64,000 bases of DNA from an uncultured Desulfurococcales archaeon (GCA_964564025.1 CAZLZO010000006.1:585-64584), one strand, 5' to 3'; positions 55,886 to 64,000 are shown, counted from the first letter of the stretch. A program made the numbers and translations. The notes: generated by a model from the sequence alone, not told the origin.

Positions 55886-55982
55886 AACTTACCTTCTCCA
55901 AGTGTTTACTCATTAGAAACATCTATTTAAGCGAAGTTGTACAATCTCCCTTACTAGGAATAGGTGGGAAAGGGAAATTATT

Positions 55983-56624
55983 TTGAAAAAAGCTATTTTC
56001 ATAATAGAGCATTTAGAGGAAAAATTAGGACAGTGGATACTTTTAGAATATGAAAATGTAGCTAAAATAGTCGGTAAAGAGAATCTCATAGTAACAAACA
56101 TTAAAGACAACAAGGAAATACTAACTAAAATAGCTAATACTATTGTTTCGGAAAGCGCTGTAGAGTTTTTGAACAAATTTAAATCGGGGAACATCATAGT
56201 TTTAGACCCTCAAGCAGAAAGAGTCTTGGAACCTGAAGACTTCGTCGGAAACAGGTTAAACACTGTAATAGTAGGGGGGATATTAGGGGATCACCCACCT
56301 AAAGGTAGAACACGTGAACTACTTACCAAAAAGTTTCTGAAGAAAAATTATGAAGTTAAAGTAAGGCATTTAGGTAAAGAACAATTAACCATAGATGGAG
56401 CAGTTTACGTAGCTTACCAAATACTTAAGGGTAAAAGAATTTCAGAAATACCTTTCACTATTGGACTAACTATTATACGTAAAGTAGGTTATGTGGAACA
56501 TGAAATCATACTGCCTTACAAATACCCTTTAGTTAACGGTAAACCTTTAGTTAACCCTAAGCTCATAAATTACCTAACTAAAGGAATAGTTGTTGATGAA
56601 ATAAAGCAGCTGGGTAAGCCATGA
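55983..56624 (+). CDS. SPOUT methyltransferase, Sfm1-like
   Basis: IEHLE....W..LEY, LDPQAE..L.PED, VGGILGDHPP..RT, RHLG..QLTIDGAV. Confidence 0.88.
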   Translation: MKKAIFIIEHLEEKLGQWILLEYENVAKIVGKENLIVTNIKDNKEILTKIANTIVSESAVEFLNKFKSGNIIVLDPQAERVLEPEDFVGNRLNTVIVGGILGDHPPKGRTRELLTKKFLKKNYEVKVRHLGKEQLTIDGAVYVAYQILKGKRISEIPFTIGLTIIRKVGYVEHEIILPYKYPLVNGKPLVNPKLINYLTKGIVVDEIKQLGKP

Positions 56625-58606
56625 AGAACTCTATGAGTACACTGGATATTTATGTGTGGATAGAGAAATGGGGTAAAAGTATTGAGAAATGCTTTGTAGA
56701 TAACATTTATAGTTTAGAAAATAACATCCTAGTTTTCAAACTTAATTGTAAAGGTAAGGCAGAAAACCCCATGATTCTCATTGAAGCATCTAAAAGAATT
56801 CACTTAACAAAACATGTCATAGTAGGGAAGTCTAAACATACCCCTTTAATTCAAGCTATGAGGAAAAGACTTAGAAACGCAATATTGGAAAGCATTGAGC
56901 AACTAGGTTGGGAGAGAATTGTTAAATTAGTGTTTAAAAAACATAGTGAAACATACTTTGTTTATTTAGAAATTATACCCCGTGGGGTAATAGTCCTAAC
57001 AGATTCTGAAAACACAATAATCTATGCTTCAAAATTCGTTAAAATGAAGGACCGTTCAATAGTGCCTAAGGGAAAATACTCCTTACCTCCAGCTAAAGGC
57101 ATGAACCCATTAGCTGAACCTATCGAAAAATTATACAACGTCTTTTCAGGAGAAAAGAATGTTTCAAAAGGCTTTATCAAGTGCTTTGGAGTACCTAGTG
57201 AGATTATTAACGAAATACTCTTTCGATTAAATATGGGTAAGGACAAAGATAAATGGTCTTTTAAAGATTTTCTAAAGGCATATAGTGTTTTTAAAGAAAT
57301 AATTGATGAATCTATGGAGGGTAAAGGGTACATTGTTAAGACAGACAAAGGAAACTATGTAACTGTAACACCATTTAAACCTAAGCATATAGAGAAGCAT
57401 GTTGTTGAGGAATATTCTGATTTTAATGAAGCTCTTGACGAATACTTTACTGAAGTACTCAAGCAAGCTAGAATGATGGAGATGATAAAAGCTAAGCATG
57501 ATGAAGTAACGAGGCTTGAAAAGTCCATAGAGGAAGCACTTAAAGTAAAGGAGAAGTATGCTGAAGAAGCTGAGATTTGTAGAAGAATGGGAGATTTAAT
57601 AATGCATTACATGAATGATGTAGCATTAATTATTAATTGCTTAAGAAGTAAAAATATTAGAAAACTTGAACCCAATGATGCTGTTAAAGCGTGTAATAAG
57701 GTTTCAAGGAAGCTAAGGATTCTTGAATATCTTAAAGATAAAGGGAAAGTCGTTGTTGAAGCGGATAATGTGAAAATCCCTATTGACATAAGGTTGTCAC
57801 CTTATGAGAATGCCGCAAAATACTATGAGAAAGCTAAGGAGAGGAAGCGAAAAGCAAGTAAGGTTGATGAAAAAGTATTTGAACTTAAGATGAAACTTAA
57901 AAGGCTTCTTGAAGAAGAAGCGTTTACTGTAGAAGAAGAGAAAGCTAGAATTAAAAGGAGAGAGTGGTTTGAAAAATATCACTGGACTATATCTAAGGAT
58001 GGATACTTAATTTTAGGAGGGAGAGATGCTAGTCAAAATGAAAGTTTAGTAAGGAAGCTCTTAGAACCTAATGACATATTTATGCATGCAGATATTCATG
58101 GAGCCTCTGCAGTCATAATTAAGTCTAAGGGCAAAGCTTCGGAGGAAGCATTAAAGGAAGCTGCAGTAATTGCCGCTTCATATTCTAAAGCGTGGAAGGA
58201 GGGATTGGCATCAATAGACGTATATTGGGTTTGGGGAGATCAGGTTTCTAAGAAGCCTCCAGCCGGAGAATACTTAACTAAAGGGGCATTCATGATTTAT
58301 GGTAAGAAGAATTATATTAGAAATGTTCCACTAGAATTAGCTTTAGGATTGCAGGTAATAAATGATTCTTTAAGAGTAATTGTGGGTTCTGAACAGAATG
58401 TTAAGGAAAAAGCCATAGCTTACGTAATATTGTCTCCAGGTAGTGAAGAGCCCTATAAGCTTGCTAAGAGAATTAAGAAAATTTTCTACGAAAAGCTTCC
58501 AGAAAGCTTCAGGGCAAAAGTTAAAGTGGTTTCTGAAGAGGAAATAGCAAGGGAGATTCCAGGTTTATCTACCATTAGAAAAGTTGTTATTCTATTGTCT
58601 TCTTAG
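56621..58606 (+). CDS. rqcH: ribosome quality-control factor Rqc2/NEMF (NFACT domains)
   Basis: MS.LD, LRKRL.N, QLGWERIV, WFEKYHW, GGRDASQNE, MHADIHGAS, YL.KGAFMIYGKKNY. Confidence 0.95.
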   Translation: MKNSMSTLDIYVWIEKWGKSIEKCFVDNIYSLENNILVFKLNCKGKAENPMILIEASKRIHLTKHVIVGKSKHTPLIQAMRKRLRNAILESIEQLGWERIVKLVFKKHSETYFVYLEIIPRGVIVLTDSENTIIYASKFVKMKDRSIVPKGKYSLPPAKGMNPLAEPIEKLYNVFSGEKNVSKGFIKCFGVPSEIINEILFRLNMGKDKDKWSFKDFLKAYSVFKEIIDESMEGKGYIVKTDKGNYVTVTPFKPKHIEKHVVEEYSDFNEALDEYFTEVLKQARMMEMIKAKHDEVTRLEKSIEEALKVKEKYAEEAEICRRMGDLIMHYMNDVALIINCLRSKNIRKLEPNDAVKACNKVSRKLRILEYLKDKGKVVVEADNVKIPIDIRLSPYENAAKYYEKAKERKRKASKVDEKVFELKMKLKRLLEEEAFTVEEEKARIKRREWFEKYHWTISKDGYLILGGRDASQNESLVRKLLEPNDIFMHADIHGASAVIIKSKGKASEEALKEAAVIAASYSKAWKEGLASIDVYWVWGDQVSKKPPAGEYLTKGAFMIYGKKNYIRNVPLELALGLQVINDSLRVIVGSEQNVKEKAIAYVILSPGSEEPYKLAKRIKKIFYEKLPESFRAKVKVVSEEEIAREIPGLSTIRKVVILLSS

Positions 58607-58629: not shown

Positions 58630-59058
58630 TTGTCAGAAACAGGAGAAGAAATTCTTGTAGAAGAAATTATGAGTACCCCACCAATAGCAATATCTCCTAA
58701 TGCCTCAGCATCGGAAGTAGCTAAAATTATGACTGAGAAGAAAATAGGTTGTTTAATTGTTGTAGAAAACAAGAGAGTTGTAGGAATAGTTACGAGAAGG
58801 GATCTTGTTGAAAAGGTTTTAGCTAAGGAAAAGAACCCTGTGAAAACGAGAGTTAGAGAAATTATGTCTACTCCTGTAATATATGTTAAACCTGGAACAC
58901 CAATTTTAGAGGTTGCTAAAATTATGTCGCGACATGATATAAGGCATGTCCCCGTTATAAATAATAGAGGCCTTGTAGGTGTAATTACTGATAAGGACAT
59001 TTTATCAGTAGCACCGGATCTCATAGAGGTACTTACTATTAGAAGGTATACTTCGTGA
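58630..59058 (+). CDS. CBS-domain protein (one CBS pair)
   Basis: V.EIMS.PP, GIVT.RD, IRHVPV, GVITDKD. Confidence 0.93.
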   Translation: MSETGEEILVEEIMSTPPIAISPNASASEVAKIMTEKKIGCLIVVENKRVVGIVTRRDLVEKVLAKEKNPVKTRVREIMSTPVIYVKPGTPILEVAKIMSRHDIRHVPVINNRGLVGVITDKDILSVAPDLIEVLTIRRYTS

Positions 59059-59118
59059 AAGTTTCAAGAAAAATATATTTCGTGCAAAAAGAAACTATAA
59101 TATTTGAGGTAGCTTAGT

Positions 59119-59904
59119 GTGGAACTTCTAAAATATGTTAACGTAAACTATCCTCAATTATCCCCTAATGATTTAGCAACAAAAGCACGTGCCTTAATGA
59201 GAGATTTTGGGTTAAGGATAATACCGATAGTTGAAAATAATAAGTTAGTAGGTATTGTTTATAGAATAAATGTACTTAGCATGACTTCTTCTAAATCTAA
59301 TCTCTTAATAAGAAACATAGTTGATGAATCTAAAATTATTTTGAATCCAAACTTTAGCGTTAGAGTAGCTGTGGAAAACATGCTTAAAGTTGATGAATGG
59401 TATGCTCCAGTAGTTGATGAAAAAGGTAACTTCATTGGAATATTTGAAATAGATAGTGTCATAAGAGAATTTTGTTCAAGAAACATTTTAATAAATAATA
59501 AACCTATTAAGGAGATTATGACAGAAAATGTAATATATGTTAATGAAGATGAGGAGCTTTCTACAGTTTTCTATAAAATGCTTAAGCATCAATATGCGGG
59601 AATGCCTGTAGTTAATAAGAGGAAAAGGGTGGTTGGAATCATAACCCAACATGATCTTTTAAAATCAGGGTTTACGCGTTTACAATTGGAATCTGAAAGA
59701 TCAGGTGGGTATAGATCTATTAAAGCCAGAGACATTATGAGCACAAATATTGTTAAAGTGTCTCCTACGGCTACACTAGGTGAGGTAGCTAAACTTATTG
59801 TAGATAGGGATATAGGTAGGGTAATTGTTGTTAATAAGGAAAACAAGTTACTAGGCATAGTTGATAGAGAGGATATTGTTAAAGCGTATCTTCCCTATAT
59901 TTAA
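59119..59904 (+). CDS. CBS-domain protein (four CBS)
   Basis: Repeated P.V...L.GI motifs, GIITQHDL, GIVDRED. Confidence 0.92.
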   Translation: MELLKYVNVNYPQLSPNDLATKARALMRDFGLRIIPIVENNKLVGIVYRINVLSMTSSKSNLLIRNIVDESKIILNPNFSVRVAVENMLKVDEWYAPVVDEKGNFIGIFEIDSVIREFCSRNILINNKPIKEIMTENVIYVNEDEELSTVFYKMLKHQYAGMPVVNKRKRVVGIITQHDLLKSGFTRLQLESERSGGYRSIKARDIMSTNIVKVSPTATLGEVAKLIVDRDIGRVIVVNKENKLLGIVDREDIVKAYLPYI

Positions 59905-59933
59905 AACTTGGTTAATTAGGAGGTTTCTTTAAA

Positions 59934-60887
59934 TTGTCAAGACCTACGAGATTTGTGAGCCCAAAGAAAAGGAGGTTTCCTGAAGGCCAAAGGTTTTTAA
60001 GAAGTAATGGTAAACCTAGTTTTTCAACTAGGGTTTATGAAAAGCCTGGAGAGCTTTATTTAATAGCTAAGAGGCCAGTAGTTACAATAACGCATGTTGA
60101 ACCTATAGGTAAAGCAGTAAGAACAATGACTAAAAAAGGTTTTCGTAGGCTTCCTGTAACTAAAGCAACAGGTGAGCTTCAAGGCATAATTACAGCAACA
60201 GATATTGTAAACTATTTTGGCGGTGGAGAATACTTTAACATAATAGTTAATAGACATAGTAAAAACATATATAAGGCGTTTGATGAGCCCGTTTCATCAA
60301 TAATGAATAGGAACCCTATCTATGCAACAACAGAAGACACCTTAACCTACGTCATAGAACTCATGGTAAAATACAATGTGGGAGGAATACCCGTTGTTAC
60401 ACCTGATGAAGGAAAAATTTACGGAATAATAACAGAACGTGATGTAATAAATTATCTTGGGGGTAAAGTGTTAGGTATGAAAGTAGCGGAAGTTATGACT
60501 AAGAGTGTAATAACTTTACCTTATGATGCTTCAATCAAGGAAGCAGCTAAAACAATGATAAAAATGGGGTTTAGGAGAATACCATTAGTTGATAGAAACG
60601 GATATGTTAGAGGCTTAATAACTGCAAGAAGTATTGTAAGATTTTTCGGAACAAACAAAGTTTTCGACTATATAGTCACTGGAAACATTGATGAAGTACT
60701 AAGTGTGCCTGCTTATGAAGCAGCTATTCATGAAATAATAACGTTGTCTCCTGATGCTGATGTCGGCGAAGCAGCATCAAAAATGGCTGAAACAGGAATG
60801 GGCTCTGTTCTTGTAGCTAAAGGATCTAGACTTGTAGGAATACTTACTGAAAGAGACATTATGTTACTTCTCGTAATTAAGAGGTGA
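59934..60887 (+). CDS. CBS-domain protein (four CBS, basic N-terminal extension)
   Basis: FRRLPV, GIITATDIVNYFGGG, GIITERD, FRRIP, GILTERD. Confidence 0.93.
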   Translation: MSRPTRFVSPKKRRFPEGQRFLRSNGKPSFSTRVYEKPGELYLIAKRPVVTITHVEPIGKAVRTMTKKGFRRLPVTKATGELQGIITATDIVNYFGGGEYFNIIVNRHSKNIYKAFDEPVSSIMNRNPIYATTEDTLTYVIELMVKYNVGGIPVVTPDEGKIYGIITERDVINYLGGKVLGMKVAEVMTKSVITLPYDASIKEAAKTMIKMGFRRIPLVDRNGYVRGLITARSIVRFFGTNKVFDYIVTGNIDEVLSVPAYEAAIHEIITLSPDADVGEAASKMAETGMGSVLVAKGSRLVGILTERDIMLLLVIKR

Positions 60888-60891
60888 AATA

Positions 60892-61734
60892 TTGCCTCCA
60901 AGAATACAGAATTATATGTCCTCACCAGTAACTGTTGCTTCCCCACTCGACAGCTTAGCACATATAAGGAATTTAATGTTACGCCATGATATAAGTACAG
61001 TCGTGATAGTTGATGAAAATGAGAAACCTATGGGCTTAGTTTCGAGAAAGGATATTTTAAAAGCAACAATGACTAAGGATTGGATATCTAGACCTATTGA
61101 TAGAATTTATGCTTCAGAAGTTATGACAAAACCTTACAGTGTTAAGCCAAGTTTAAGCATAAAGAGGGCAGCTAATTTAATGTTGAAAAAGGATTTATGG
61201 TCTCTAGTGGTTACGGTTGAAGAAAAGCTTGTTGGAATACTCACTAGAACAGACCTTGCAAGAGCGTATGCAGAAAAATACTATGGTAAAGCTAGGGTAG
61301 AAGAATTCATGGAAAAAACTGTCCCTACGGTTTCACCAACACATACAATATATTACGTAGCAGATCTTCTATCAAGAACCAATCTAAGAAGAGTTGTAGT
61401 TGTAGATAATGAGAAACCTATAGGAATTATTACCGAATTCGATCTAGCATTCGTCGAAACAGCACTAACGCGACATAGAGGTGAGTCTTTTAGGAAAAGA
61501 CTAGGTAGGTCCCCGAGAGGGAAGTATTGTGTAATACGTTACTACCTTGTCCCATTAGCTATAGACGTTATGACCTCTGACCTTATTACAATAGAGCCAG
61601 AAGCGGACTTAGCAGAAGCTGCACATGCAATGATAGTAAACGGTATAAGTAGCTTACCTGTAGTTAGCAATGGTAAGCTTTTAGGGATAGTAACTAAGGC
61701 AAATATTTTAAAGGCTATAACTGAGGTTTCATAG
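60892..61734 (+). CDS. CBS-domain protein (four CBS, basic insertion)
   Basis: YMSSPV, GILTRTD, GIITEFD, GIVTKAN. Confidence 0.92.
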   Translation: MPPRIQNYMSSPVTVASPLDSLAHIRNLMLRHDISTVVIVDENEKPMGLVSRKDILKATMTKDWISRPIDRIYASEVMTKPYSVKPSLSIKRAANLMLKKDLWSLVVTVEEKLVGILTRTDLARAYAEKYYGKARVEEFMEKTVPTVSPTHTIYYVADLLSRTNLRRVVVVDNEKPIGIITEFDLAFVETALTRHRGESFRKRLGRSPRGKYCVIRYYLVPLAIDVMTSDLITIEPEADLAEAAHAMIVNGISSLPVVSNGKLLGIVTKANILKAITEVS

Positions 61735-61736
61735 TT

Positions 61737-62546
61737 ATGAGCGTTAATTTGAATTTGAAAGTTAGCGAAGTAATGCTAAAAGAATTCCCTGTTCTTGATA
61801 AAGATGACACATTGCACCATGCTTTAAAGCTTATGGGAAAATACGGCATGGACAGGGTTGTTGCAATAGAAAAAGGAAAGATTGTCGGTATAGCTACAAA
61901 GAAGGATATTATGGAGAGACTTGGAACTTTAAGGACAAGAAACATAACCCCTTCAAGACTTTATGTTTCAAGTGTTATGACCTCTAATCCCATAACACTT
62001 AAGCCTGAAGCTAGGGTTAAATCGGCCGTAAATCTTATGGTGGAGAATGATGTAAGTAGCATACCTATAGTTGATGATGAAAATAGACCTTTAGGATTAA
62101 TAACTAAGGTTGAAATAGCTAAGCTTTGTGTTAAAGAAAAAGTAAAAGTAGCTGAAATAATGAGTTGGAACCCCATTTATGTTAAGCCTACAGATAGGGT
62201 TTTACATGCAAGACAACTATTAATACGAAATAGTATAACAACATTACCTGTTGTTGAAGAAGATAAGGTTGTAGGATTAGTTACTATAGATGACGTAGCT
62301 GACGTATTAGCTGCATTTCACGATATAGTTCCTGAAAAATACAGGAAAGAAAGAATAATGAACCTATTAGTAGCTGACATTATGAGGATAAGATTTCCTA
62401 AACTCTATATTGACACAACACTTGGTGATGCTGCTAAAGAAATTGTAATGAGAAGGTTAAAGGGAGCACCAGTTTTAGGTAGAAATAACATGTTAATAGG
62501 AATTTTAACTTTAACTGATATTACAAGATATGTTGCTGGAAAATAA
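61737..62546 (+). CDS. CBS-domain protein (four CBS)
   Basis: GIATKKDI..RLG, GLITKVE, GLVTIDD, GILTLTD. Confidence 0.92.
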   Translation: MSVNLNLKVSEVMLKEFPVLDKDDTLHHALKLMGKYGMDRVVAIEKGKIVGIATKKDIMERLGTLRTRNITPSRLYVSSVMTSNPITLKPEARVKSAVNLMVENDVSSIPIVDDENRPLGLITKVEIAKLCVKEKVKVAEIMSWNPIYVKPTDRVLHARQLLIRNSITTLPVVEEDKVVGLVTIDDVADVLAAFHDIVPEKYRKERIMNLLVADIMRIRFPKLYIDTTLGDAAKEIVMRRLKGAPVLGRNNMLIGILTLTDITRYVAGK

Positions 62547-62589
62547 TTTAAAACACTTTAGAACAACAATTTTCTTAAGGAATTTTAAA

Positions 62590-63075
62590 ATGTTTAAGCT
62601 AAAATTTGTAGCCGACGCAATGTTAGGTAGTTTAGCTAGGTGGCTAAGAATTTTAGGCTATGATACAGTGTATTCGAAAAACATTAGTGATAAGGATATT
62701 TTAGAGCATGCGTCTAAGGATAAAAGGATAATTTTGACACGGGATTACAGTCTTTACAGGAGGGCTAAAAAATACGGATTAAACGTTGTGTATTTTGAAA
62801 CGAATGAAATAGAAAAAATGCTAACTGTACTCGCTAAAAGGTATGGCATAAACTTAGCAATAGACCCTGATAGAACTAGATGCCCAATATGTAATGGTGA
62901 TTTAGTAAGAGCTTCTTCAGAAAAGGTTAAAGGTAGAGTACCCGAAGTCGTAATAAAGGAACATAAGGATTTTTGGATATGCACTAAATGTGGCAAAATA
63001 TATTGGAAAGGCACTCACTGGATAACAATGGAGAAAATACTGGCTGAAGTTAGAAAAGAGGTTTCCAAGGTGTAA
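62590..63075 (+). CDS. Mut7-C RNase (PIN fold plus Zn ribbon) domain protein
   Basis: FVADAMLG.LARWLR.LGYD, LTRD, RCP.CNG, C..CGKIYW.G.H; start moved to the ATG at 62590. Confidence 0.93.
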   Translation: MFKLKFVADAMLGSLARWLRILGYDTVYSKNISDKDILEHASKDKRIILTRDYSLYRRAKKYGLNVVYFETNEIEKMLTVLAKRYGINLAIDPDRTRCPICNGDLVRASSEKVKGRVPEVVIKEHKDFWICTKCGKIYWKGTHWITMEKILAEVRKEVSKV

Positions 63076-63079
63076 TAAG

Positions 63080-63751
63080 ATGGTTACATTAAAAGACTTT
63101 ACACTTGACGACGGCGTATTCTTAGTTAAACTTTCAAGAAAAGCTGTTGAAACATTTTTAAAAGCTGGAGTTAAAATTTCACCTCCTAAAAATATTCCTG
63201 AAAAGTTTAAAGAAAAATTCGGTGTTTTTGTAACCATAGAAAGACTTAGCCATATAGGGCCCAAGGTTTATAAGGAATTAAGAGGATGCATAGGTTTCCC
63301 ATATCCAATAAAGTCCCTCATAGAAGCAACCATTGACTCTGCAATATCTGCTGCTGTTGAAGATCCTAGGTTCCCCCCTATGAAGCTTAACGAGCTAAGT
63401 AATGTTATATTTGAGGTCTCCATTCTTTCTCCTCCAGAGGAAGTAGTGGTAAGAAACAGGAAGGATTTACCTAAAGAAATAGTTATTGGCCGCGATGGCC
63501 TCATAGTAGAGTATGGCTGGTATAGAGGCTTACTTTTACCCCAAGTACCAGTAGAGTATAAATGGGACACTGAAACCTTTCTTGCAGAAACATGTATGAA
63601 AGCTGGTCTACCTCCAGATTCATGGCTCATTGACGATGTTAAAATTTACAGGTTCGAGGCAAGGATTTTTACTGAAATAGAACCTAATGGTAAAGTAGTT
63701 ATGAGAGACTTATTTAAGGAACTTAAGGTAATGAAGGAGAGTGAGAATTGA
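63080..63751 (+). CDS. AMMECR1/TIGR00296 family protein
   Basis: GVFVT, LRGCIG, DPRFPP, EVSILS, IG.DGLI, GLLLPQV. Confidence 0.95.
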   Translation: MVTLKDFTLDDGVFLVKLSRKAVETFLKAGVKISPPKNIPEKFKEKFGVFVTIERLSHIGPKVYKELRGCIGFPYPIKSLIEATIDSAISAAVEDPRFPPMKLNELSNVIFEVSILSPPEEVVVRNRKDLPKEIVIGRDGLIVEYGWYRGLLLPQVPVEYKWDTETFLAETCMKAGLPPDSWLIDDVKIYRFEARIFTEIEPNGKVVMRDLFKELKVMKESEN

Positions 63752-64000
63752 AAACAGTTTTTGTCCCATTACTTATGCCATTTTTTAATTTCAACGGCAA
63801 CATCGTAGGTGCTGCAAGAATATACTACGGCGTTATAGTTTCTAACTCTTTTGCTCTAATTAATTGTCCATCTGATGAGGCTTCTACAAAGTTTTTAGAA
63901 AGCCTCGGCATTGAAGCATTAAGTTACTGTGAAGTAAAAAATAACCCGACACTAAATTACGCTTTAGAATACGCTATTGAAGTATTTACTGGTAAGAAGC
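63748..64000 (+). CDS. hypothetical protein (5' part, runs off the window edge)
   Basis: Manual translation from a TTG overlapping the AMMECR1 stop: MKTVFVPLLMPFFNFNGNIVGAARIYYG..., open to the window end. Confidence 0.6.
   Translation, partial: MKTVFVPLLMPFFNFNGNIVGAARIYYGVIVSNSFALINCPSDEASTKFLESLGIEALSYCEVKNNPTLNYALEYAIEVFTGKK

What the first reader, a model, noticed from the sequence alone, without database searches (positions are those of the whole stretch)
58630..63751. Array of five stand-alone CBS proteins (about 18 CBS domains) followed by Mut7-C RNase and AMMECR1, downstream of Rqc2
Five consecutive CBS-only genes (142, 261, 317, 280 and 269 aa) are diverged paralogs, four with the four-CBS layout of AMPK-gamma. 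None has an enzyme domain. Two carry basic extensions (RPTRFVSPKKRR; RHRGESFRKRLGRSPRG) that could bind nucleic acid. Gaps are 2-60 bp, and the run continues into a PIN-fold RNase and an AMMECR1 protein, preceded by the SPOUT and Rqc2. CBS modules bind AMP/ADP/ATP/SAM. Hypothesis: a hetero-oligomeric adenylate or energy-charge sensor that gates RNA decay or ribosome rescue. Similar CBS clusters occur in other archaea, but I know of no function assigned to them.
Basis: partly seen in the sequence, partly recalled or inferred. Interest (0 to 1): 0.7.

Follow-up and report, generated by a model that had tools for sequence, protein, structure and literature searches.

The report
Archaeal ribosome hibernation operon sriABCD
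The five neighbouring CBS-only genes are real, but four of them are the recently described sriABCD operon, whose proteins plug idle archaeal ribosomes when energy is low, so the array is a known system; only its placement inside a ribosome-rescue gene neighbourhood, and the small fifth gene, remain open.

Summary
Five adjacent CBS-only genes (142, 261, 317, 280 and 269 aa; 18 CBS domains) lie between RqcH and Mut7-C/AMMECR1 in an uncultured Desulfurococcales genome.

The four tetrads match, one to one and in gene order, SriA, SriB, SriC and SriD of Methanosarcina acetivorans (PDB 9ZNF, 9ZNG, 9ZNI; Nissley et al. 2026). These are ribosome hibernation factors that bind in pairs to the large and small subunits. 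The two "basic extensions" correspond to SriB's N-terminal tail, which enters the peptidyl transferase centre and exit tunnel, and to SriC's loop, which binds the small subunit.

The RqcH (NFACT), Mut7-C and AMMECR1 neighbourhood was published in 2014. The Mut7-C–AMMECR1 pair also exists without sri: adjacent in 32 of 33 SriB-less genomes.

The first gene is a CBS pair from a phylum-wide family found between RqcH and Mut7-C. That family normally ends in a Zn ribbon, which this class has lost.

I did not find reported that sri genes are nested in the RqcH–Mut7-C–AMMECR1 neighbourhood across Thermoproteota.

Verdict: already known system, ordinary instance, modest residual interest. No transcript data exist, and function is inferred by homology.

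The parts
55983..56624 (+). SFM1-like SPOUT methyltransferase; overlaps the RqcH start by 4 bp
   Evidence: PF04252, E 9e-49. The same SPOUT-RqcH pairing occurs in families f1, f2, f5 and f38. The spacer between NucS and SPOUT holds a conserved AGAAACA.CTATTTAAGCG box, which resembles an archaeal BRE/TATA promoter element (inference only).
56621..58606 (+). RqcH / NFACT ribosome-rescue protein
   Evidence: NF041120 RqcH_arch, 599 bits (cut-off 400); PF05833 and PF05670.
58630..59058 (+). CBS pair ('CBS1', 142 aa): a member, without the Zn ribbon, of a phylum-wide CBS-pair/Zn-ribbon family found between RqcH and Mut7-C. Not one of the four Sri proteins.
   Evidence: Two CBS stretches. Best solved relative is ST2348, E 6e-23. 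CBS1-like proteins sit next to Mut7-C in 26 of 40 loci from 20 of 27 other families. All 27 from other classes have a C-terminal CxxC...CxxC ribbon; all 7 from this class lack it. Both groups share the linker DIL.VAP.LIEVL. Both CBS motifs keep the T..D ribose-binding pair.
59059..59118 (.). 60-bp spacer with two AT-rich boxes and a GAGGT motif: a possible internal promoter ahead of sriA
   Evidence: Conserved within the genus. In M. acetivorans the upstream dual-CBS gene is not co-transcribed with sriABCD. Inference only; no transcript data.
59119..59904 (+). [quoted passage not shown]
   Evidence: Best PDB match is 9znf_4 (SriA, 270 aa), 116.6 bits, E 1e-32, against 47-57 bits for SriB, SriC and SriD. 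Second best is the N-terminal lobe of Dri (9e6q_3, residues 38-291), 81.5 bits.
59934..60887 (+). SriB ortholog (CBS tetrad with an N-terminal extension)
   Evidence: Best PDB match is 9znf_5 (SriB, 339 aa), 190.2 bits, E 5e-55, against 48-56 bits for the other Sri proteins. It is the most widely kept gene of the array: an ortholog occurs in 117 of 201 genomes of the class.
59934..60059 (+). SriB N-terminal basic extension (residues 1-42, includes RPTRFVSPKKRR)
   Evidence: Conserved motif (R/P)EGxRWLRSDGKPNFSxRIY; 8-16 Lys+Arg against 3-8 Asp+Glu in 14 orthologs. In M. acetivorans this extension is ordered on the ribosome and runs into the peptidyl transferase centre and exit tunnel.
60892..61734 (+). 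SriC ortholog (CBS tetrad; in the homolog binds the small subunit at the P and E sites)
   Evidence: Best PDB match is 9zni_6 (SriC, 281 aa), 111 bits, E 7e-31, against 52-70 bits for the other Sri proteins. It also matches the C-terminal lobe of Dri.
61459..61545 (+). SriC basic loop (residues about 190-218, includes RHRGESFRKRLGRSPRG)
   Evidence: Aligns with the loop of M. acetivorans SriC. Basic in all 10 orthologs examined, with 7-11 Lys+Arg. In the homolog it forms a beta-hairpin that contacts uS11 and holds the 3' end of 16S rRNA.
61737..62546 (+). SriD ortholog (CBS tetrad; in the homolog occupies the small-subunit A site, mRNA channel and decoding centre)
   Evidence: Best PDB match is 9zni_7/9zng_7 (SriD), 145 bits, E 2e-41, against 56-70 bits for the other Sri proteins.
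62590..63075 (+). Mut7-C domain protein with a C-terminal Zn ribbon (the ORF is open from 62530)
   Evidence: PF01927, E 4e-51. Invariant D34, D52, C98, C101, C131, C134, R20, Y28 and H143 in 54 orthologs. Single copy in 184 of 201 genomes of the class.
63080..63751 (+). AMMECR1 family protein
   Evidence: PF01871, E 3e-54; TIGR00296, 232 bits. The LRGCIG cysteine is conserved in 34 of 35 orthologs. Adjacent to Mut7-C in 87 of 115 genomes.
63748..64000 (+). Start of a 235-aa ORF with no Pfam match; overlaps the AMMECR1 stop by 4 bp and ends about 455 bp beyond the window. It is the last gene of the + strand run; a convergent GPN-loop GTPase follows.
   Evidence: Found after AMMECR1 only in the window's own family.

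Best explanation
The array consists of a small CBS-pair gene followed by the four-gene ribosome hibernation operon sriA-sriB-sriC-sriD.

Mechanism, inferred from the characterised M. acetivorans and Methanolobus proteins: when energy runs low, the SriA- and SriB-like proteins bind the large subunit. [quoted passage not shown] On other ribosomes, the SriC- and SriD-like proteins bind the small subunit. SriD blocks the A site, mRNA channel and decoding centre. SriC sits in the P and E sites, and its basic hairpin holds the 3' end of 16S rRNA. This silences idle ribosomes and shields them from degradation. The CBS pockets bind adenine nucleotides: AMP keeps the factors on the ribosome and ATP releases them.

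The operon sits inside the older archaeal NFACT(RqcH)-Mut7-C-AMMECR1 neighbourhood. The first gene belongs to a CBS-pair family that occupies the RqcH/Mut7-C junction across Thermoproteota and has lost its Zn ribbon in this class.

Shown here: orthology, gene order, conservation of the two ribosome-inserting elements, and neighbourhood statistics. Inferred: ribosome binding, nucleotide control, and any functional tie to the neighbouring genes.
For: The best matches between the four tetrads and SriA-D are reciprocal in a 4x4 comparison and follow gene order, with margins of 41-134 bits. The identity of the PDB entries was confirmed from the paper. The syntenic order sriA-D is the commonest arrangement reported, in 529 species, and a dual-CBS gene lies upstream in M. 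acetivorans too. The SriB extension and SriC loop are present, basic and conserved. Canonical T/S..D ribose-binding pairs are kept in 1, 3, 3 and 3 of the 4 motifs of the SriA-, SriB-, SriC- and SriD-like proteins, the same kind of pairs that bind AMP in ARC. The genome has no HPF/RaiA domain and no other CBS tetrad, which fits the reported anticorrelation between sri and hibA. The array is conserved across many families, with varying subsets of sri genes, as the paper describes.
Against: No experiment or transcript data exist for this organism; only DNA metagenomes hold the sequence. Function is carried over from Halobacteriota proteins to a hyperthermophilic member of the Thermoproteota. The SriA-like protein keeps only one of four canonical nucleotide-binding pairs. 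SriD's decoding-centre loops and the Sri-Sri interface residues were not examined. I could not build a tree with the reference Sri sequences, so clade membership rests on pairwise profile scores.
Confidence: 0.87

Rival explanations
1. Extended-module reading. RqcH, the CBS-pair protein, the Sri proteins, Mut7-C and AMMECR1 form one functional unit that links energy-sensed hibernation to ribosome rescue or RNA processing. The CBS-pair protein would act as a fifth, regulatory or adaptor, component.
For: The string RqcH - CBS pair - Sri(n) - Mut7-C - AMMECR1 recurs with short gaps in several classes of Thermoproteota, even where all flanking genes differ. Mut7-C lies within 4 kb downstream of SriB in 57 of 112 genomes, and in family f4 the link survives loss of the intervening sri genes. 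The Sri authors note that unidentified endonucleases degrade 23S rRNA when Sri is absent.
Against: Each joint breaks in some lineage. f6 has sri alone. f13 has RqcH-sri with Mut7-C 6-16 kb away. f7 has sri-Mut7-C without AMMECR1 or RqcH. f8 and f12 have Mut7-C-AMMECR1 without sri. Unrelated genes nearby (NucS, Sm, SAM synthetase) are also syntenic over several families, so inherited gene order explains part of the signal. M. acetivorans has sri but no Mut7-C (control list).
Confidence: 0.25
2. First reader's reading. The five CBS proteins assemble into a soluble hetero-oligomeric energy-charge sensor, like an AMPK-gamma without a kinase, that directly gates the Mut7-C nuclease or RqcH.
For: The CBS tetrads resemble AMPK-gamma (PDB matches with E about 1e-6). 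The genes are adjacent to Mut7-C and RqcH.
Against: In the characterised orthologs the tetrads bind ribosomes directly and pair only on the ribosome. Mut7-C and AMMECR1 persist as a pair in 32 of 33 genomes without SriB. It is not established that prokaryotic Mut7-C is a nuclease.
Confidence: 0.05
3. The tetrads are non-ribosomal CBS regulators, for example HhpR-like transcription activators or metabolic-enzyme regulators, that merely resemble Sri.
For: HhpR is a four-CBS protein in the same superfamily cluster. NCBIfam lists HhpR among the weak hits.
Against: HhpR scores are 55-79 bits against a cut-off of 520. Each protein matches one specific Sri far better than any other solved CBS protein. 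The ribosome-inserting elements are conserved.
Confidence: 0.03

Closest known systems
SriA-SriD, single ribosomal subunit inhibitors of Methanosarcina acetivorans (Nissley et al., Nat Commun 2026, PMC13454478; PDB 9ZNF, 9ZNG, 9ZNI)
   Same: Four tandem genes, each a bare CBS tetrad, in the same A-B-C-D order. One-to-one best matches. SriB-type N-terminal extension and SriC-type basic loop present. A dual-CBS gene lies immediately upstream in both.
   Different: Different phylum (hyperthermophilic Thermoproteota). Here the cluster lies between RqcH and Mut7-C/AMMECR1, and M. acetivorans lacks Mut7-C. The SriB-like protein is shorter (317 aa against 339). No experimental data for this lineage.
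ARC-P / ARC-A of Methanolobus (Zhu et al., bioRxiv 10.64898/2026.01.19.700304)
   Same: These are the SriC/SriD orthologs: two unfused CBS tetrads on the small subunit, with AMP bound through Thr/Asp pairs and release triggered by ATP. The window's SriC- and SriD-like proteins keep 3 of 4 such pairs each.
   Different: The arginine pocket proposed there to sense ATP was not examined here.
Dri, dual ribosomal subunit inhibitor of Pyrobaculum calidifontis (PDB 9E6Q)
   Same: Same phylum and same CBS-tetrad building blocks. Its N-terminal lobe matches the SriA-like protein and its C-terminal lobe the SriC-like protein.
   Different: Dri is one 655-aa chain with two tetrads. This genome has no such protein.
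AHA / HibA (CBS tetrad fused to an HPF/RaiA domain)
   Same: An SriA-like CBS tetrad that binds the large subunit; AMP is bound.
   Different: Needs an HPF/RaiA domain, which is absent from this genome.
Archaeal NFACT + Mut7-C + AMMECR1 gene neighbourhood (Burroughs & Aravind, RNA Biol 2014, PMC4075521; arCOG01336-arCOG04290 link in Makarova et al. 2019, PMC6393860)
   Same: All three genes are present, co-directional and conserved. The Mut7-C Zn ribbon and the AMMECR1 cysteine are kept.
   Different: Five CBS genes are wedged between NFACT and Mut7-C. The 2014 paper does not mention CBS at all.
CBS-pair proteins fused to a Zn-ribbon-like domain (Ta0289, PDB 1PVM; PDB 3GHD)
   Same: CBS1 matches them (E 2e-9 and 8e-12). 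Its orthologs in other classes carry the ribbon.
   Different: The window's copy and all 7 examined in its class lack the ribbon. The function of the family is unknown.

Membership tests
Sri (SriA-D) ribosome hibernation factors | Each protein is a bare tetrad of CBS domains with no other domain | tested here: met
   Pfam finds four CBS stretches each and nothing else.
Sri (SriA-D) ribosome hibernation factors | Each protein is closest to one specific Sri subfamily (A, B, C or D) | tested here: met
   phmmer against PDB gives 116.6, 190.2, 111 and 145.2 bits to SriA, SriB, SriC and SriD. The next-best Sri scores 57-70 bits, and the matches are reciprocal in the 4x4 table (chain identities). 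A formal tree with the reference sequences was not built.
Sri (SriA-D) ribosome hibernation factors | Genes clustered in the order sriA-sriB-sriC-sriD | tested here: met
   Order and gaps of 29, 4 and 2 bp. This is the commonest arrangement in the paper.
Sri (SriA-D) ribosome hibernation factors | SriB N-terminal extension that reaches the peptidyl transferase centre and exit tunnel (absent in 'SriB-short') | tested here: met
   A 42-residue basic extension with a conserved motif in 14 orthologs. The alignment to SriB starts at residue 27 of the query and 46 of SriB. Its path on the ribosome cannot be tested here.
Sri (SriA-D) ribosome hibernation factors | SriC positively charged loop that binds the small subunit (short and less charged in 'SriC-short') | tested here: met
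   The loop aligns with that of SriC. It has 9 Lys+Arg here and 7-11 in 10 orthologs.
Sri (SriA-D) ribosome hibernation factors | SriD loops that engage the decoding centre; conserved SriA-SriB and SriC-SriD interface residues | not tested
Sri (SriA-D) ribosome hibernation factors | Binds ribosomes, inhibits translation and protects subunits in stationary phase | not testable with these tools
   Uncultured organism; no RNA runs.
AHA / HibA | CBS tetrad fused to an HPF/RaiA domain | tested here: not met
   No PF02482 match anywhere in the genome, while the control genomes do match. No tetrad has an extra domain.
Dri | Two CBS tetrads in one chain of about 650 aa | tested here: not met
   The longest CBS ORF in the genome is 317 aa.
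HhpR transcription activator | Score above the NCBIfam cut-off for NF053603 (520 bits) | tested here: not met
   55-79 bits.
NFACT-Mut7-C-AMMECR1 neighbourhood (Burroughs & Aravind 2014) | An NFACT gene near a Mut7-C gene (with Zn ribbon) and an AMMECR1 gene (with conserved Cys) | tested here: met
   The published description was verified. In this class RqcH lies within 10 kb of Mut7-C in 50 of 135 genomes.
CBS-pair / Zn-ribbon family (Ta0289-like) | A CBS pair followed by a C-terminal CxxC...CxxC ribbon | tested here: not met
   CBS1 has the CBS pair and the family's linker motif but no ribbon. 27 of 27 relatives from other classes have one; 0 of 7 in this class do. It is best described as a derivative that has lost the ribbon.

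The most novel reading that the evidence does not exclude
The sri genes and the CBS-pair (Zn-ribbon) gene are not just lodged in the archaeal RqcH-Mut7-C-AMMECR1 neighbourhood but work with it. Under this reading, a Thermoproteota-wide module couples energy-sensed ribosome hibernation to ribosome rescue and to RNA processing by Mut7-C and AMMECR1. The CBS1-family protein would be a so far unrecognised fifth ribosome-associated sensor or adaptor.
Probability: 0.22. Interest if true: 0.65.

Novelty: already known. Interest (0 to 1): 0.25.

Why it matters
As an instance of sriABCD it adds little. The family was surveyed across 6,968 archaeal species and reported in 15 phyla. The useful leftover is context. 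Two separately published items turn out to be physically interleaved across many families of Thermoproteota: the 2014 NFACT-Mut7-C-AMMECR1 neighbourhood and the 2026 Sri hibernation genes. A CBS-pair protein sits at the junction. AMMECR1 and Mut7-C are among the most widespread archaeal proteins of unknown function, and how archaeal ribosomes are degraded is an acknowledged gap. This linkage therefore gives a concrete, testable lead: do Mut7-C, AMMECR1 and the CBS-pair protein act on idle or stalled ribosomes?

Tried and rejected
- The sigma-70 promoter and terminator scan gave counts equal to the shuffled controls and does not apply to archaea, so I ignored it.
- NCBIfam gave no family above its cut-off for any CBS protein. 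PrdR, HhpR, CbpB, the DS-11 anti-phage protein, IMPDH and others were all shared-domain hits only.
- RNA evidence: no RNA runs hold the sequence. Only five vent or sediment DNA metagenomes do, so operon structure could not be tested.
- CBS1 as an ortholog of MA4647 could not be tested, because that sequence was not at hand. The word-based protein search for CBS1 found close relatives only in the window's own family and otherwise generic CBS pairs. One distant hit, P0014, sits next to V-ATPase genes with no sri context.
- I searched the literature for a function of the CBS-pair/Zn-ribbon family in this context and found nothing.
- I skipped structure prediction and fold search. Sequence E-values of 1e-31 to 1e-55 to the solved Sri chains already settle the fold, and the fold library may predate those entries.
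- The 235-aa ORF after AMMECR1 has no Pfam match and is restricted to the window's own family, so I do not count it as part of the conserved module.

Full report
**Observation**

The window carries a co-directional run on the + strand (Pfam and NCBIfam):
- an SFM1-like SPOUT methyltransferase (55983-56624)
- RqcH/NFACT (56621-58606)
- five CBS-only genes (58630-59058, 59119-59904, 59934-60887, 60892-61734, 61737-62546)
- Mut7-C (ORF from 62530; likely start at 62590)
- AMMECR1 (63080-63751)
- a 235-aa ORF that runs off the window

A convergent GPN-loop GTPase closes the run. The five proteins contain 2+4+4+4+4 = 18 CBS domains and nothing else. They are old paralogs, 23-35% identical to each other. 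The gaps are 23, 60, 29, 4 and 2 bp. The genome has only nine CBS-containing ORFs, and all four tetrads are in this array.

**Identity of the tetrads**

A literature search turned up a group of 2025-2026 papers on archaeal ribosome hibernation factors built from CBS tetrads: Dri, AHA/HibA, ARC and Sri.

The Sri paper (PMC13454478) describes four tandem genes in Methanosarcina acetivorans, sriABCD. Each is a bare CBS tetrad, and a dual-CBS gene lies just upstream but is not co-transcribed. SriA and SriB bind the large subunit. SriB's disordered N-terminal extension enters the peptidyl transferase centre and the exit tunnel. SriC and SriD bind the small subunit. SriC's positively charged beta-hairpin contacts uS11 and the 3' end of 16S rRNA, and SriD blocks the A site, the mRNA channel and the decoding centre.

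Searching each window protein against PDB sequences gave a distinct best hit for each, in gene order:

| Window gene | Best PDB chain | Bits | Other three Sri proteins (bits) |
|---|---|---|---|
| Gene 2 | 9znf_4 (SriA) | 116.6 | 47-57 |
| Gene 3 | 9znf_5 (SriB) | 190.2 | 48-56 |
| Gene 4 | 9zni_6 (SriC) | 111 | 52-70 |
| Gene 5 | 9zni_7 (SriD) | 145.2 | 56-70 |

The identity of the entries was confirmed from the paper's data statement. The secondary hits fit as well. The SriA-like protein matches the N-terminal lobe of Dri and the SriC-like protein matches its C-terminal lobe, as the paper says they should.

**The two 'basic extensions'**

The first lies in the SriB N-terminal extension. That extension is conserved in 14 orthologs with the motif (R/P)EGxRWLRSDGKPNFSxRIY and is net basic. 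The second lies in the loop that aligns with the small-subunit-binding loop of SriC and is basic in all 10 orthologs examined. In the characterised homologs both elements contact ribosomal RNA.

**Nucleotide sensing**

In ARC, the SriC/SriD orthologs of Methanolobus, AMP is bound through Thr/Asp pairs. AMP keeps the complex on the ribosome and ATP releases it. Here, canonical T/S..D pairs are kept in 1, 3, 3 and 3 of the four CBS motifs of the SriA-, SriB-, SriC- and SriD-like proteins, and in both motifs of the CBS pair. Nucleotide control is therefore plausible but inferred.

The genome has no HPF/RaiA domain and no Dri-like double tetrad. That matches the reported anticorrelation between sri and hibA.

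**The neighbours**

The organism is an uncultured member of the Desulfurococcales. In 201 genomes of its class:
- SriB orthologs occur in 117.
- Mut7-C is a near-universal single-copy gene, present in 184.
- AMMECR1 is in 194.
- RqcH is in 198.

Mut7-C lies within 4 kb downstream of SriB, on the same strand, in 57 of 112 genomes where both positions are listed. That covers nearly all members of nine families and none in three. In family f4 the link persists even where only SriB is left, with gaps of 63-170 bp.

However, Mut7-C and AMMECR1 are adjacent in 87 of 115 genomes, including 32 of 33 without SriB. RqcH lies within 3 kb of SriB in 32 of 109 genomes. In the sri-less family f8 it lies within 3 kb of AMMECR1 in 13 of 13.

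Both linkages are already in the literature. Makarova et al. 2019 list AMMECR1 (arCOG01336) as linked to a PIN-plus-Zn-ribbon protein. Burroughs & Aravind 2014 describe a conserved archaeal NFACT + Mut7-C + AMMECR1 neighbourhood. That paper never mentions CBS. The Sri, ARC and AHA papers never mention RqcH, Mut7-C or AMMECR1.

**The first gene and the wider pattern**

A distant CBS1 relative in a Candidatus Methanomethylicus-like contig sits in the string RqcH - CBS pair - SriC - SriD - Mut7-C - AMMECR1, with unrelated flanking genes.

I sampled 40 loci around Mut7-C from 27 further families of the phylum:
- A CBS1-like gene lies beside Mut7-C in 26 loci (20 families).
- Sri tetrads lie between it and Mut7-C in 9 loci (7 families), in varying subsets: B-C-D, B alone, C-D or A-B.
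- Four families have RqcH followed directly by Mut7-C with no CBS gene between them; AMMECR1 follows Mut7-C in three of the four.

All 27 CBS1-like proteins from other classes end in a Zn ribbon, G(Y/F)C(D/E)xCGxWS...LCExC. All 7 from the window's class, including the window's copy, lack it but keep the same linker motif. So the first gene is not an Sri protein. It is a derivative, without the ribbon, of a CBS-pair/Zn-ribbon family whose usual position is the RqcH/Mut7-C junction. This agrees with two earlier notes of this scan. I tested their claims here rather than relying on them.

**What Mut7-C and AMMECR1 are**

Burroughs & Aravind call Mut7-C an active PIN-fold RNase. A 2023 structural study found a TOPRIM-like fold that is only distantly PIN-like, proposed RNA binding, and states that no prokaryotic function is known. 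Across 54 orthologs here, two Asp residues, the four ribbon Cys, and Arg, Tyr and His residues are invariant. AMMECR1 keeps its predicted catalytic Cys in 34 of 35 orthologs. Neither protein has a demonstrated activity.

**Transcription**

No RNA runs exist for this organism. Gaps of 2-4 bp, with GGTG or GAGGT motifs ahead of the start codons, suggest translational coupling within sriB-C-D and between Mut7-C and AMMECR1. The 60-bp spacer before sriA holds AT-rich boxes conserved within the genus. That would fit a separate promoter, as in M. acetivorans. This is inference only.

**Verdict**

The array is a CBS-pair gene plus sriABCD, a known system. Its mechanism here is inferred by homology with high confidence.

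But the target is the ribosome itself, and the function has been published. Mut7-C and AMMECR1 form an independent, previously described pair.

The residual point of interest is that hibernation genes and a CBS-pair gene are nested in the ribosome-rescue neighbourhood across Thermoproteota. I did not find this in the papers read. Whether it reflects function or inherited gene order is open, because each joint of the string is broken in some lineage.

Noticed in passing
L042:8015-9883 (-), next to L042:6805-7728 (+): In a Thermofilaceae MAG, a 622-aa CBS protein lies beside an SriB ortholog on the opposite strand. Its best hits are the SriA- and SriC-like genes, so it looks like Dri. A Dri plus stand-alone SriB combination may be worth a look.
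   Followed up: no
window 63748-64000, continuing to about 64455 on the contig (L013:9333-10040): A 235-aa ORF overlaps the AMMECR1 stop by 4 bp. It has no Pfam match and is found after AMMECR1 only in the window's own family (genomes G001, G003, G004, G005).
   Followed up: partly
G055, G089, G099, G115 and other genomes of family f8 (coordinates): In the sri-less family f8 (its single-contig genomes of 1.8-3 Mb suggest Sulfolobaceae), RqcH is transcribed divergently from the adjacent Mut7-C-AMMECR1 pair in 13 of 13 genomes. The S. acidocaldarius control genome has an HPF/RaiA domain.
   Followed up: partly
G312:C1:1666923-1667315 and G293:C13:321-713 (family f26); L068:8976 onwards: The Mut7-C match lies in unusually long open frames (585 and 495 aa; a 372-aa ORF in L068). 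This may be a fusion of Mut7-C to another domain.
   Followed up: no
window 55886-55982 (NucS-SPOUT spacer): The sequence AGAAACA.CTATTTAAGCG is invariant in three genomes of the genus. It resembles an archaeal BRE/TATA element and is a candidate promoter for the SPOUT-RqcH run.
   Followed up: partly
window 55983-58606: The SFM1-like SPOUT gene overlaps the RqcH start by 4 bp. The same SPOUT-RqcH pairing recurs in families f1, f2 and f5 and in f38 of another class (L083).
   Followed up: partly
L064, L065, L073, L080 (families f24, f29, f35): In these lineages Mut7-C is inverted relative to RqcH and the CBS pair, and AMMECR1 sits 2 kb away. This variant shows that the neighbourhood persists through local rearrangement.
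   Followed up: no
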